34,091 nucleotides of DNA. Source: Bacteriovoracaceae bacterium. Its GTDB lineage: Bacteria; Bdellovibrionota; UBA1018. The position numbers and the translations under genes were made by a program. The stretch covers positions 1 through 34,091 of the forward strand of contig CANMSW010000001.1 in NCBI GenBank assembly GCA_947500275.1, written 5' to 3'. Of the stretch, positions 9,302-10,982 are shown in pieces; positions within the stretch are counted from its first letter, which is position 1, and each line of letters starts with the position of its first letter. The notes beneath the pieces were generated by a model that was given only the letters and a program-made list of their open reading frames with translations, was not told where the DNA came from and did no database searches.

Positions 9302-9948
9302 AATTCTCCCTTTATTTTTTGGCTCTCGGTAGAAGACCCCTGTTCACTTCTATCTGAAAGTTCAGAAAGAGAGAAAACCGGAGCACCCTGAGTATCGCGC
9401 TGTACCTTCTCCCACCGACTCTTCTGCTCGGCTGTGATTCTGCCGCGACCAAAACTGGCCGACATATCGGCGAGATCATAGACAGCCCGCTCATAGGCTT
9501 TAGTGTGGACGAGTGAAGTCGGAATACAAGACTCCACACAGAGTCCGCAGAAGGTGCAACTTGAGAAATCAATATCGAAAACTGATACCCAAGCCTTCTG
9601 GGAGTCCGGGACTTGAACTGTTTCCACCGTGATACATTTCACGGGGCAAACTTTCTCGCAGTCTCTGCACCCCGTGCACCGCTCAATATCATTAAAGAGT
9701 AAACCACGAACCCTTGCCGGAAGATCGTTCTCGGTCCGTGATGAAATGGGATCTGGATATTGCTCAGTCACTTCTTTTCGGAGGTCCGCAGCATTCCCCC
9801 CGCGCAAGTAAGGGAGCGACGCGCGAAGTGCGTTCGAAAGGCTCGCAAGAGCGTCGCGCAAAGATTTGAATGAAGCGATCAAATCTTGTGTCAACCCACT
9901 GGAAAAAGACGGAGCAACAAGGTCTCTCTCTTCACCGCTCATACTCAT
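9298..9948 (-). CDS. nuoI: NuoI-like 2x[4Fe-4S] ferredoxin subunit (divergent, with N- and C-terminal extensions)
   Basis: Contains CTGCRDCEKVCP and CTFCGLCVESCIP. I chose the start at MSMSGEE (ATG at 9948) because it forms an ATGA overlap with the nuoH-like stop and has GGAGGA upstream. The ORF track extends to 10023. Confidence 0.85.
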   Translation of the reverse strand: MSMSGEERDLVAPSFSSGLTQDLIASFKSLRDALASLSNALRASLPYLRGGNAADLRKEVTEQYPDPISSRTENDLPARVRGLLFNDIERCTGCRDCEKVCPVKCITVETVQVPDSQKAWVSVFDIDFSSCTFCGLCVESCIPTSLVHTKAYERAVYDLADMSASFGRGRITAEQKSRWEKVQRDTQGAPVFSLSELSDRSEQGSSTESQKIKGEL

Positions 9949-10982
9949 GGAGAAATTCCTCCTGCCTTCAAAAGGGCGGAACCCATCAGACAAACGAGAG
10001 AGATCGGGCCGAGTGCGCGCCAAGAGAAATCAGCAACTTGATCAAACCGAATTCTCGGCATCACACGCCCAACTACGCCCAAAACCATCATGAGTGACAG
10101 CGTTTTAAGACCTACGAGGAAAACTTGAATCGCCTGATATGCAAAGGTATTTGCGGCGCCCTCACCTAGAACAGCCACTAAAACAGAGCTTAAGAACCCA
10201 GGAAGCGCCCAGCCACCCATGAATAGCCCTACCGTAAGAACACACCAAACAAGCACACCGTAAAACTTGATGATCACGGACAAAGAGGAGCGCCTCCCCG
10301 AGAACAGTGTGCCAAGTCCACCTCGAAGATCAGGGCCAGACGCCGTGCTATCAAAAGGGGGTAACGAGAGGATTACCATTCCTGATGCTAGAAAAATAAG
10401 AAATGAAACAAACAGAAATGGCTCCCTGAACATTAGCCAAGTACCCATGCTTGAGTCATGCGGGCTTAAAAGGTTCGACCACTGAAACCCTCCGGCGGAG
10501 AGTCCCACCGATATTAGCGAAATCATCGCTGGCAGAAAGCCTGATATCGCTTGAAATGCCGAGCGAAGCCCGGCAAGCCAACCTGTAAACTCGCGACTGT
10601 TCACACCCAGGAGGAGGCTACAAACAGAAACCATCAAGATGCACCAGAGTGGCAGGAGAATCGATAATCCTGTAATCGTCATGAGGAGATGCGGTGCAAT
10701 CGGTACTGTTACCATTGCCGCGTGGAGTGCGGCTAACTGCAGGGCCGGCCACAGGGCTAGCTGCGGGGTTTTGAGTTCCGGCGAAACCTTCTGAAGTAAT
10801 TTCAGCTGATCGGCAATCCCCTGAAACAAGCCGAGGGGTCCCACGCGATTCGGGCCAACTCGGGCCTGAAGATCGGCTCCAATTTTTCTCTCGAAGTATG
10901 AGTGCAGAAACCCAACCGGGAGCACAAAACCCAGTTGAAGAATCAAGAGCGACGAGAAGACTTTTGAAAGTGTTTCAATCAT
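9945..10982 (-). CDS. nuoH: NuoH-like subunit (divergent)
   Basis: Contains [34 protein letters not shown], the hallmark ND1/NuoH N-terminal motif. I chose the start at MIETLSK (ATG at 10982, GAGAGG RBS, 13 nt after the nuoD-like stop). The ORF track extends to 11057, inside nuoD2. Confidence 0.88.
   Translation of the reverse strand: [345 protein letters not shown]

What the first reader, a model, noticed from the sequence alone, without database searches (positions are those of the whole stretch)
9945..10982. NuoH2 keeps the ND1 N-terminal signature but loses the acidic E-channel residues
The N-terminal motif [33 protein letters not shown] is clearly ND1/NuoH. The conserved acidic positions further on are replaced.
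- Canonical ..KE.. after ADxxKL reads LQKV.
- Canonical AQxxSYE reads FQAISGF.
- Canonical PFDxxEAExELvxGyxxEYSG reads [22 protein letters not shown].
- Canonical xxEY reads IKFY.

In complex I these Glu residues link the quinone cavity to the antiporter-like subunits. Their loss matches the changes in NuoD2 and in the membrane arm.
Basis: partly seen in the sequence, partly recalled or inferred. Interest (0 to 1): 0.6.

Follow-up and report, generated by a model that had tools for sequence, protein, structure and literature searches.

The report
Charge-stripped NuoH of spare complex I
This gene encodes the membrane "heel" subunit of a second, conserved copy of respiratory complex I in Bdellovibrionota; it keeps its fold and docking surface but has lost nearly every acidic residue that normally links quinone chemistry to proton pumping, so it is most likely a selected, non-pumping version of the machine.

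Summary
NuoH2 (window 9945-10982, minus strand, 345 aa) is a true ND1/NuoH homologue. Pfam PF00146 scores 157 bits, and an AlphaFold model (pLDDT 92) matches NdhA and NuoH structures at TM 0.8-0.86.

Four independent alignments put non-acidic residues at the conserved sites (E. coli numbering). These are E71V, Y156G, E157F, E216A, E218G, E228L, Y229F, E241K and Y242F, plus I at the Glu-206 site, R209L and K140F. Only D213 is kept, and E220 is conservatively replaced by Asp.

All 94 canonical NuoH sequences in my set, and E. coli HycD, keep these residues, so the loss is secondary. The loss is shared by about 140 sequences (at least 85 clusters at 50% identity), all from uncultured Bdellovibrionota. 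The synteny is fixed: mfd, then nuoA2-N2, then the canonical nuoA-N.

Selection is purifying: dN is 0.09-0.17 while dS is saturated. A sister "intermediate" clade at the same locus lost E157 and Glu-206 first.

The partner subunits changed in step. NuoA2 lost D79 and E81, NuoK2 has E36Q and E72Q, NuoB2 has a remodelled loop, and NuoD2 lost His, Tyr and Asp. All Fe-S cysteines remain.

Best reading: NuoH2 is a coupling-dead docking subunit of a non-pumping complex I paralogue. Its physiological role is unknown. I found no published description.

The parts
9945..10982 (-). nuoH2: ND1/NuoH homologue, 345 aa, with charge-stripped E-channel and TM5-6 loop
   Evidence: Pfam PF00146 scores 157 bits. 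NCBIfam NuoH scores 154.7 bits, below the 305 cutoff. The AF2 model has pLDDT 92.1. Foldseek gives TM 0.81-0.86 to NdhA and NuoH. The start has an SD site and the stop overlaps nuoI2.
10785..10892 (-). Retained TM1-amphipathic-helix loop motif [36 protein letters not shown]. It is the docking surface for NuoB/NuoD. The last residue, V66, replaces E71.
   Evidence: Translation. R46, G48, P49, G53, G56, Q59, D63, K66 and K70 are kept in 93-100% of 140 NuoH2 sequences. In E. coli, N50D and R46H break assembly (PMC9696053).
10536..10562 (-). TM4 segment SAFQAISGF. Canonical AQxxSYE has become FQAISGF (Y156->G148, E157->F149).
   Evidence: E157 is kept in 1% of NuoH2 sequences and in 100% of canonical ones.
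10263..10373 (-). End of TM5, TM5-6 loop and start of TM6: [37 protein letters not shown]. The Glu-206 site, R209, E216, E218, E228, Y229, E241 and Y242 are replaced. D211 is kept and E220 is Asp (D218).
   Evidence: Over E. coli 200-245, D+E / K+R counts are 7.1/2.0 in canonical sequences and 2/4 here.
10996..12138 (-). nuoD2: the quinone-site residues His224, Tyr273 and Asp325 (E. coli NuoCD numbering) are replaced by P, P and T
12149..12676 (-). nuoC2 (weak Complex1_30kDa match)
12663..13145 (-). nuoB2: the four N2-cluster cysteines are kept. The loop facing the NuoH TM5-6 loop is remodelled (E84 deleted, R87Q, R91S).
13142..13651 (-). nuoA2: D79->L and E81->M. No profile match; assigned by position and orthology.
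9298..9948 (-). nuoI2: all eight cysteines of the two [4Fe-4S] clusters are kept. Its ATG overlaps the nuoH2 stop (ATGA).
8729..9301 (-). nuoJ2: Y59->G. No profile match in this copy; the orthologue in L002 matches PF00499.
8433..8732 (-). nuoK2: E36Q and E72Q
6482..8425 (-). nuoL2: 647 aa, no Pfam match, relay residues replaced
   Evidence: The same 625-647 aa gene is present in relatives.
4843..6429 (-). nuoM2: Proton_antipo_M match. E144S, K234R, K265A, H348V and E407H.
3310..4833 (-). nuoN2: E133Q, K217Y, K247R. K395 is kept.
155..3045 (-). Start of the canonical operon: nuoA1 (2686-3045), nuoB1 (2124-2639), nuoC1 (1488-2057) and nuoD1 (155-1435). All canonical residues are present. The contig ends before nuoE.
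   Evidence: In relative L056 the canonical operon continues as E, F, G, H, I, J, K, L, M, N.

Best explanation
**What it is.** NuoH2 is the ND1-type "heel" subunit of Nuo2. Nuo2 is a complete 11-subunit paralogue of complex I (A2 B2 C2 D2 H2 I2 J2 K2 L2 M2 N2, without E/F/G). It is inherited vertically in Bdellovibrionota and always lies between mfd and the canonical nuoA-N operon.

**What is shown.**
- NuoH2 keeps the ND1 fold.
- It keeps the TM1-amphipathic-helix loop. In E. coli this loop is needed to assemble NuoH with the NuoB/NuoCD head.
- Almost every conserved ionisable residue of the quinone-cavity loop (TM5-6) and the E-channel has been exchanged. This covers E157, the Glu-206 site, E216, E218, E228, E241, R209 and K140. 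The replacements are mostly apolar, plus one conserved Arg at 241. Only D213 is kept, and E220 is conservatively Asp.
- The net charge of that region goes from about -5 to about +2.
- The contact partners changed in step (NuoB2 loop, NuoA2 D79/E81, NuoK2 E36/E72, NuoD2 His/Tyr/Asp).
- All Fe-S ligands of NuoB2 and NuoI2 are kept.
- The gene is under purifying selection.

**What is inferred.**
- NuoH2 can no longer relay protons or charge from a quinone site to the antiporter-like subunits.
- It works as a structural docking platform that holds an Fe-S-carrying head on a charge-stripped membrane arm. The assembly is therefore a selected, non-pumping derivative of complex I, not a respiratory pump.

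**What is speculative.** Electrons, if they flow, would enter from ferredoxin or from the NuoEFG module of the adjacent canonical operon. They would leave to an acceptor that is not a Tyr/His-bound quinone.
For: **Homology and fold.**

**Residue replacements.**
- They appear in register in four independent alignments.
- All 94 canonical sequences keep the signature.
- E. coli HycD also keeps E138, E189, E199/201/203 and E211/Y212 at these columns (matching PMC5061711). The loss is therefore secondary.

**A real family.**
- It holds about 140 sequences in at least 85 clusters at 50% identity.
- It forms a clade with 100/100 support. The sister intermediate clade has 100/99 and the two together 100/97.

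**Synteny.** The arrangement mfd | nuo2 | canonical nuoA-N is fixed even in the most diverged members.

**Selection.**
- dN is 0.09-0.17 with saturated dS, and one measurable pair gives dN/dS 0.107.
- Of 56 canonical-invariant sites, 25 are kept in at least 80% of NuoH2 sequences. These are mainly the docking loop and the structural Pro/Gly/Trp residues.

**Co-variation in partner subunits.**

**Fe-S ligands.** Kept in 40-41 of 41 NuoB2 and 43 of 43 NuoI2 sequences.

**Experimental anchors.**
- E228A/Q/K leave about 0-9% activity, E71A/K leave 7-15%, and N50D and R46H break assembly (PMC9696053).
- E157 acts as a proton relay to D79A and E36K (PMC13324432).
- Glu157 is described as invariant (PMC8357420).
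Against: - There are no expression or biochemical data. No RNA run holds the gene, and every carrier found is an uncultured MAG.
- The positive function is unknown, so "docking platform" is what remains after exclusion.
- Some polar or charged residues are conserved at new places: Arg at 241 in 73%, Asp at 220 in 51%, His at 228 in 26%, and Gln in NuoK2. A different relay chemistry could use them.
- Full retention of Fe-S ligands argues that some redox function persists. Such a function needs an acceptor site that I could not identify.
- I could not inspect the model's coordinates, so I do not know whether a cavity survives.
- The window's own canonical nuoH could not be checked.
Confidence: 0.7

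Rival explanations
1. Nuo2 is still an ion pump or energy-coupled enzyme, and NuoH2 uses a different relay. Candidates are the conserved Arg at 241, Asp at 220, His at 228 and the Gln pair in NuoK2. The relay could carry another ion, or work by conformational rather than protonic coupling.
For: - The new residues are conserved: R241 in 73%, D220 in 51%, and NuoK2 Gln in 23 of 26.
- All 11 subunits, including three antiporter-like ones, are under strong purifying selection. That is costly for a mere anchor.
- NuoN2 keeps K395, and NuoM2 has K234R and K312R.
Against: - Most replaced sites became apolar: E157 -> A/L/S/F, the 206 site -> L/I/M, R209 -> I/V/L, K140 -> V/I/L, E216 -> L/F, NuoA2 D79/E81 -> I/L.
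- Gln cannot carry protons.
- The mid-membrane Lys/Glu/His relay of L2, M2 and N2 is largely gone.
- In E. coli, E228Q leaves about 1% activity (PMC9696053).
Confidence: 0.12
2. Nuo2 is a non-electrogenic oxidoreductase. The NuoH2/B2/D2 cavity has been rebuilt as an apolar pocket for a different lipophilic acceptor, or for quinone bound without Tyr/His. NuoH2 would then be a substrate-tunnel subunit rather than a pure scaffold.
For: - Fe-S ligands are kept in all members.
- The cavity-lining loop of NuoH2 and the NuoB2 loop co-vary rather than decay.
- NuoD2 gains a conserved Glu at the E. coli M329 position, in 38 of 47 sequences.
- The intermediate clade still keeps the quinone Tyr, R209, E228 and Y229.
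Against: - No acceptor or donor gene is linked to the operon. Its neighbours are only mfd and the canonical nuo operon.
- His224, Tyr273 and Asp325 are all lost in most NuoD2 sequences.
- I could not compute a cavity.
- This rival overlaps the best explanation, because both are non-pumping.
Confidence: 0.15
3. nuoH2 is a decaying duplicate (pseudogene in the making), or the missing glutamates are an alignment artefact.
For: - NCBIfam NuoH scores fall below the curated cut-offs.
- The stem branch is long, at 1.44 substitutions per site.
- NuoA2, NuoJ2 and NuoL2 have no Pfam match.
Against: - Intact ORFs with translational coupling occur in at least 85 diverged clusters.
- dS is saturated while amino-acid identity is 78-86%, and dN/dS is about 0.1 or lower.
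- The AF2 model is confident (pLDDT 92).
- Four alignment methods agree. The whole TM4 to TM6 stretch of the window protein holds only two acidic residues near the loop, D211 and D218.
Confidence: 0.03

Closest known systems
NuoH / ND1 / Nqo8 of canonical respiratory complex I (E. coli NuoH; PDB 7z7r_H, 7nyh_H)
   Same: - Same fold: TM 0.81/0.86.
- Same operon position, between nuoD and nuoI.
- Same TM1-AH1 docking motif (ERK..Q.R.GPNR.GP.G..Q..AD..K...K).
- Same structural Pro, Gly and Trp residues, and R148, K274, R293 and D295.
   Different: - Identity to a relative's canonical NuoH1 is 26%.
- The ionisable residues E71, K140, E157, Glu-206, R209, E216, E218, E228 and E241 are lost. Y156, Y229 and Y242 are lost too. 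E220 is Asp.
- Scores fall below the NCBIfam equivalog cut-offs.
NdhA of cyanobacterial and chloroplast NDH-1, and other 11-subunit "NUO11" complexes without NuoEFG (PMC4758237, PMC3144371)
   Same: - These are the best sequence and structure matches: 7wff_A at E 2.7e-29 and 9grx_A at TM 0.85.
- Same 11-gene composition with no N-module.
   Different: - NdhA keeps AQSISYE, AECERLPFDLPEAEEEL and TEYSG (alignments).
- Per PMC4758237, NUO11 enzymes react with quinone. Complex-I-type proton pumping is not shown in the sources read here. Nuo2 has lost both sets of residues.
- Nuo2 coexists with, and sits next to, a full 14-gene complex I.
HycD / MbhM / EchB, the NuoH-like subunits of group-4 membrane-bound hydrogenases
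   Same: They are homologous membrane heel subunits that dock an Fe-S/NuoD-like head.
   Different: - HycD keeps the glutamates E138, E189, E199/201/203 and E211 (PMC5061711).
- NuoD2 shows no Cys at either end, where the NiFe ligands would lie by my own knowledge of the motif (translation).
- In the tree, NuoH2 groups with the NuoH sequences and not with HycD.
Ehr-type and other "relic" complex-I-like operons
   Same: They are complex-I-derived assemblies kept by selection after losing a canonical catalytic feature.
   Different: The pattern is the mirror image of the Ehr note. That note reports lost cofactor ligands with an intact-looking membrane arm. Nuo2 keeps every Fe-S ligand and has lost the charges of the membrane arm and the quinone site.

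Membership tests
NADHdh / NuoH / ND1 (Pfam PF00146) | Profile match above the Pfam gathering score | tested here: met
   157 bits against a cutoff of 27, covering profile positions 5-295 of 298.
NADHdh / NuoH / ND1 (Pfam PF00146) | ND1 fold | tested here: met
   The AF2 model has pLDDT 92.1 and pTM 0.92. Foldseek gives TM 0.75-0.86 to more than 50 ND1/NuoH/NdhA chains.
NuoH functional equivalog (NCBIfam NF004740-NF004745) | Score above the curated equivalog cut-off | tested here: not met
   The best score is 154.7 bits against a cutoff of 305.
NuoH functional equivalog | Invariant E-channel carboxylates (E. coli E157, the Glu-206 site, E241) | tested here: not met
   The window has F149, I204 and K239. 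These residues are kept in 0-2% of 140 NuoH2 sequences and in 91-100% of 94 canonical ones.
NuoH functional equivalog | Acidic TM5-6 loop PFDxxEAExEL...EYSG | tested here: not met
   The sequence reads [22 protein letters not shown]. Only D213 is kept, and E220 is Asp.
NuoH functional equivalog | TM1-AH1 loop residues needed for assembly with NuoB/NuoCD (R37, R46, N50, D63, K70) | tested here: met
   All are present in the window protein. They are kept in 87-100% of the family. Their role comes from PMC9696053.
11-subunit complex I-like enzymes (NUO11 / NDH-1 type) | Operon A-B-C-D-H-I-J-K-L-M-N without E/F/G | tested here: met
   The same operon is found in relatives.
11-subunit complex I-like enzymes (NUO11 / NDH-1 type) | Quinone-site His and Tyr in NuoD, and the Lys/Glu relay in the antiporter-like subunits | tested here: not met
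   NuoD2 has H224P, Y273P and D325T. L2, M2 and N2 have largely lost the relay.
11-subunit complex I-like enzymes (NUO11 / NDH-1 type) | Fe-S chain N6a/N6b/N2 | tested here: met
   NuoB2 keeps 4 of 4 Cys and NuoI2 keeps 8 of 8 Cys, conserved in 40-43 orthologues.
Group-4 [NiFe] hydrogenase membrane module (HycD/MbhM) | NiFe-binding cysteines in the large subunit, and glutamates in the HycD-like subunit | tested here: not met
   NuoD2 has no Cys at either end, where the NiFe ligands would lie by my own knowledge of the motif (translation). HycD keeps the glutamates that NuoH2 lacks.
Ehr (hydrogenase-related, cofactor-less) complexes | Loss of Fe-S and NiFe ligands in the head | tested here: not met
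   The Fe-S ligands are fully retained.

The most novel reading that the evidence does not exclude
Nuo2 is a natural, selected "coupling knock-out" of complex I that has taken on a new job. Possible jobs are a non-electrogenic redox enzyme with a rebuilt apolar acceptor pocket, or a partner or regulator that borrows the NuoEFG module of the adjacent canonical operon.

The intermediate clade at the same locus records the order in which coupling was dismantled:
1. First the E-channel core (E157, Glu-206, K140, E216), together with the His and Asp of NuoD.
2. Later the TM5-6 loop glutamates, E241, R209 and the quinone Tyr.

This would give the complex I field an evolutionary series of uncoupled variants, and a new functional class of complex-I-like machines.
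Probability: 0.3. Interest if true: 0.8.

Novelty: new variant of a known kind. Interest (0 to 1): 0.62.

Why it matters
How quinone reduction drives proton pumping 200 angstroms away is still debated. The glutamates of ND1/NuoH are central to every current model.

Here nature keeps a full complex I architecture with an intact Fe-S chain. Purifying selection has held it across a whole phylum after removing those residues and their partners in NuoA, B, D, J, K, L, M and N. A sister lineage is caught half-way.

This bears on three questions:
- It shows which residues are needed only for coupling and which for fold and assembly.
- It predicts an unknown function for a complex-I-shaped machine in Bdellovibrionota.
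- It warns that "NADH-quinone oxidoreductase subunit H" annotations in these genomes do not imply a second respiratory pump.

Tried and rejected
- **Rooting.** HycD is a 4-substitutions-per-site branch that lands among the canonical sequences. I therefore infer secondary loss from HycD's retained glutamates, not from the root.
- **Cultured carriers.** Two genome scans returned only MAGs. Both scans depend on one peptide pattern each, so absence from cultured strains is not shown.
- **Sinha et al. 2009.** This NuoH mutagenesis paper is not held. I used PMC9696053, which summarises it.
- **Literature.** Searches found no description of this paralogue. The Peredibacter paper (PMC13147790) discusses multiple nuo clusters in Bdellovibrionota. 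Its reported identity between the two clusters (37.5-41.5%) is higher than the 26% seen here. That suggests a different, canonical-like paralogue.
- **Pseudogene, alignment artefact, hydrogenase subunit.** All three were considered and rejected; see the rival explanations and the membership test.
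Full report
**1. What is at the coordinates**

The minus strand of 3310-13651 carries eleven tightly packed genes in complex I order: A2 B2 C2 D2 H2 I2 J2 K2 L2 M2 N2, with no E, F or G. The start of a canonical nuoA1-B1-C1-D1 follows at 3045-155.

The finding's gene, nuoH2, starts at ATG 10982, 7 nt after a GAGAGG Shine-Dalgarno site and 13 nt after the nuoD2 stop. It ends at TGA 9945-9947, which overlaps the nuoI2 ATG as ATGA. The 345-aa product equals database protein P0002.

**2. Is it NuoH?**

Yes, by descent.
- Pfam PF00146 scores 157 bits over nearly the whole profile.
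- phmmer against PDB chains finds only ND1, NuoH and NdhA chains. The best are chloroplast and cyanobacterial NdhA (E 2.7e-29 and 2e-27) and E. coli NuoH (E 1.6e-21).
- An AlphaFold2 model built on a 72-sequence family alignment has pLDDT 92.1 and pTM 0.92.
- The model superposes on NdhA (9grx_A, TM 0.85) and E. coli NuoH (7z7r_H, TM 0.81/0.86).
- It does not reach any NCBIfam NuoH equivalog cut-off (154.7 against 305 bits).
- It is 26% identical to the canonical NuoH1 of a relative.

**3. Are the glutamates really gone?**

I fetched E. coli K-12 NuoH as a numbering reference (L001). I aligned it with 258 homologues from two database searches (alignments).

Window residues at the key E. coli positions:

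| E. coli position | Window NuoH2 |
|---|---|
| E36 | E31 (kept) |
| E71 | V66 |
| K140 | F132 |
| Y156 | G148 |
| E157 | F149 |
| 206 (Glu in 91% of canonical; Val in E. coli) | I204 |
| H208 | S206 |
| R209 | L207 |
| D213 | D211 (kept) |
| E216 | A214 |
| E218 | G216 |
| E220 | D218 |
| H226 | G224 |
| E228 | L226 |
| Y229 | F227 |
| E241 | K239 |
| Y242 | F240 |
| R286 | G305 |

The same register appears in the HMMER alignments to NdhA and in BLASTP against a canonical NuoH1.

The stretch 10263-10373 contains only two acidic residues, so no shift of register can recover the glutamates.

Every one of the 94 canonical sequences in the set shows the signature E-E-E-R-D-E-E/D-E-E-Y-E-Y/W/F-R/K (one has Tyr at 218).

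Of 56 positions that are at least 90% conserved in canonical NuoH:
- 25 are kept in at least 80% of 140 NuoH2 sequences.
- 18 are kept in fewer than 20%.
- None of the nine conserved Glu positions is retained (hypergeometric p = 0.0027).

The D+E / K+R counts of the TM5-loop-TM6 region are:

| Group | D+E | K+R |
|---|---|---|
| Canonical | 7.1 | 2.0 |
| Intermediate clade | 4.4 | 3.0 |
| NuoH2 family | 2.2 | 3.5 |
| This protein | 2 | 4 |

This amounts to a charge inversion.

**4. What the lost residues do in complex I**

- PMC13324432 lists E216H, H226H, E241H, H208H and E220H as the E-channel next to quinone site 2. It describes the proton wire E157H -> D79A -> E36K.
- PMC8357420 calls Glu157 invariant and places it at the end of the hydrophilic cavity that starts at the Q-site.
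- PMC9696053 reports the following activities for E. coli NuoH mutants:

| Mutant | Activity |
|---|---|
| E228A/Q/K | about 0-9% |
| E228D | 47% |
| E71A | 15% |
| E71K | 7% |

- In the same paper, N50D and R46H abolish assembly. E228 pairs with NuoB R91, and E71 lies near NuoA K46.

NuoH2 keeps the assembly-critical set (R37, R46, N50, D63, K66, K70). It loses the activity-critical set.

**5. Secondary loss**

E. coli HycD is the NuoH homologue of formate hydrogenlyase. It aligns with E138, E189, E199, E201, E203, E211 and Y212 at the columns of E157, 206, E216, E218, E220, E228 and Y229. This is the same mapping as in PMC5061711.

The glutamates therefore predate complex I, and NuoH2 lost them.

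**6. A conserved family, not a decaying copy**

- The first search gave about 74 NuoH2-type proteins at 30-44% identity. It also found canonical NuoH proteins, including the 398-aa Bacteriovorax type.
- A profile search of 1.84 billion representatives added about 60 more clusters at the 50% level.
- The genome scan with the family profile returned 49 loci, nearly all uncultured Bdellovibrionota MAGs. The weakest few hits carry other phylum labels. The scan with the intermediate-clade profile also returned canonical NuoH loci from other phyla.
- In four relatives spanning the family, including the most diverged, the order is the same. mfd is divergent upstream where the contig reaches it, the 11 nuo2 genes follow, then canonical nuoA1 onward.
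- In L056 the canonical operon is complete (A-N). Its NuoH1 has the full canonical signature.
- In an IQ-TREE analysis the NuoH2 clade has 100/100 support on a 1.44 substitutions-per-site stem.
- Between orthologues that are 78-86% identical in protein, synonymous sites are saturated and dN is 0.09-0.17. The one measurable pair gives dN/dS = 0.107. That is comparable to nuoM2 and nuoN2 and about twice the dN of canonical nuoB1 and nuoD1.

**7. An intermediate stage**

Eight representatives (P0192, P0198, P0203 and others) form the sister clade of NuoH2. The clade has 100/99 support and the joint node 100/97. One of them lies in the same mfd | nuo2 | nuo1 synteny (L059).

Their NuoH2:
- has already lost K140, E157 (-> L/V/I/A), the 206 Glu (-> Trp) and E216;
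- still has R209, D213, E218/E220, E228, Y229 and R286.

Their NuoD2 still has the quinone Tyr but has lost His224 and Asp325.

So the E-channel core went first, and the cavity loop went later.

**8. Partners changed in step**

| Subunit | Change |
|---|---|
| NuoA2 | D79 -> L/I and E81 -> M/L (canonical 40 of 40 D and E) |
| NuoK2 | E36Q and E72Q in 23 of 26 |
| NuoJ2 | Y59 -> G/S |
| NuoB2 (loop opposite the NuoH TM5-6 loop) | E84 absent in 41 of 41; R87 -> Q in 30 of 41 (canonical R 35 of 35); R91 -> S here |
| NuoD2 | H224P in 40 of 47; Y273P and D325T in the window; new Glu at M329 in 38 of 47 |
| NuoL2, M2, N2 | Most relay Lys/Glu/His replaced |

In contrast, the four N2 cysteines of NuoB2 are kept in 40-41 of 41 sequences. 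The eight cysteines of NuoI2 are kept in 43 of 43.

**9. Interpretation**

*Shown.* NuoH2 has an ND1 fold and a conserved docking loop. Its E-channel and quinone-loop charges were removed in a way that is conserved, secondary and co-varying with its partners. This happened under purifying selection, inside a complete 11-subunit paralogue with an intact Fe-S chain.

*Inferred.* The complex cannot couple redox chemistry to ion translocation in the way complex I does. NuoH2 serves as the structural adaptor between the head and the arm.

*Not known.* The donor is unknown; it could be ferredoxin or the neighbouring NuoEFG. The acceptor and the physiological role are also unknown.

*Rivals.*
- An alternative relay or ion (0.12).
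- A rebuilt apolar acceptor pocket in a non-electrogenic enzyme (0.15; compatible with non-pumping).
- Decay or artefact (0.03).

**10. Novelty**

Searches of the held literature found the NUO11 nomenclature and remarks on multiple or split nuo clusters in Bdellovibrionota (PMC4758237, PMC13147790). They found no description of a charge-stripped, quinone-site-less paralogue.

Earlier notes of this scan on the same genome reached the same overall reading for NuoD2 and for K2-N2. Here I re-derived the residue calls independently.

I rate it a new variant of a known kind.

**Limits**

- There are no expression data.
- All carriers are MAGs.
- No coordinates were available for cavity analysis.

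Noticed in passing
L058 (nuoA2-H2 at 515-4140), L059 (nuo2 at 4892-14711), L060-L064, L075: An "intermediate" Nuo2 lineage sits at the same mfd | nuo2 | nuo1 locus. Its NuoH2 keeps R209, E218/E220, E228 and Y229 but has lost E157, E216 and K140, and has Trp at the 206 site. Its NuoD2 keeps the quinone Tyr, and its NuoL2 still matches Proton_antipo_M. One carrier is labelled candidate division WWE3, which is probably a binning or label problem.
   Followed up: partly
Proteins P0180, P0184-P0191, P0195, P0202, P0219, P0223, P0224: These are 540-750 aa proteins. A fully canonical NuoH domain (often with Trp at position 242) fills the C-terminal half, after an N-terminal extension of 150-340 aa of unknown identity. 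This suggests a fusion of NuoH with another domain or subunit.
   Followed up: no
window 12663-13145 (nuoB2), around residues aligned to E. coli NuoB 83-91: The NuoB2 loop that faces the NuoH TM5-6 loop has a one-residue deletion (E84) in all 41 orthologues. It also has Cys at position 83 in 27 of 41, R87Q, S89D/E, and R91 variable. That is a conserved new Cys close to cluster N2.
   Followed up: partly
window 10996-12138 (nuoD2), column of E. coli NuoCD M329: NuoD2 has a conserved Glu (38 of 47 orthologues) where canonical NuoD has Phe or Met. The site lies a few residues from the lost Asp325. It could be a new functional residue in the former quinone pocket.
   Followed up: no
window 9298-10023 (nuoI2): The longest ORF (TTG 10023, 241 aa) overlaps nuoH2 by 79 nt. 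The real start is most likely ATG 9948, which has a GGAGGA SD site and an ATGA overlap with the nuoH2 stop, giving 216 aa. This is still 40-65 aa longer than in relatives (150-177 aa), with an acidic/Ser-rich C-terminal tail.
   Followed up: partly
window 8433-8732 (nuoK2): Both membrane glutamates of NuoK are replaced by Gln, not by apolar residues, in 23 of 26 orthologues. This isosteric, non-ionisable substitution is conserved across the family.
   Followed up: partly
P0071-P0081, L065-L077: Bacteriovoracia carry a 384-399 aa NuoH with the full canonical signature. Its N-terminal motif ([19 protein letters not shown]) is closer to NuoH2 than that of other canonical NuoH sequences. It is the nearest canonical hit to NuoH2 (E about 1e-38).
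   Followed up: no
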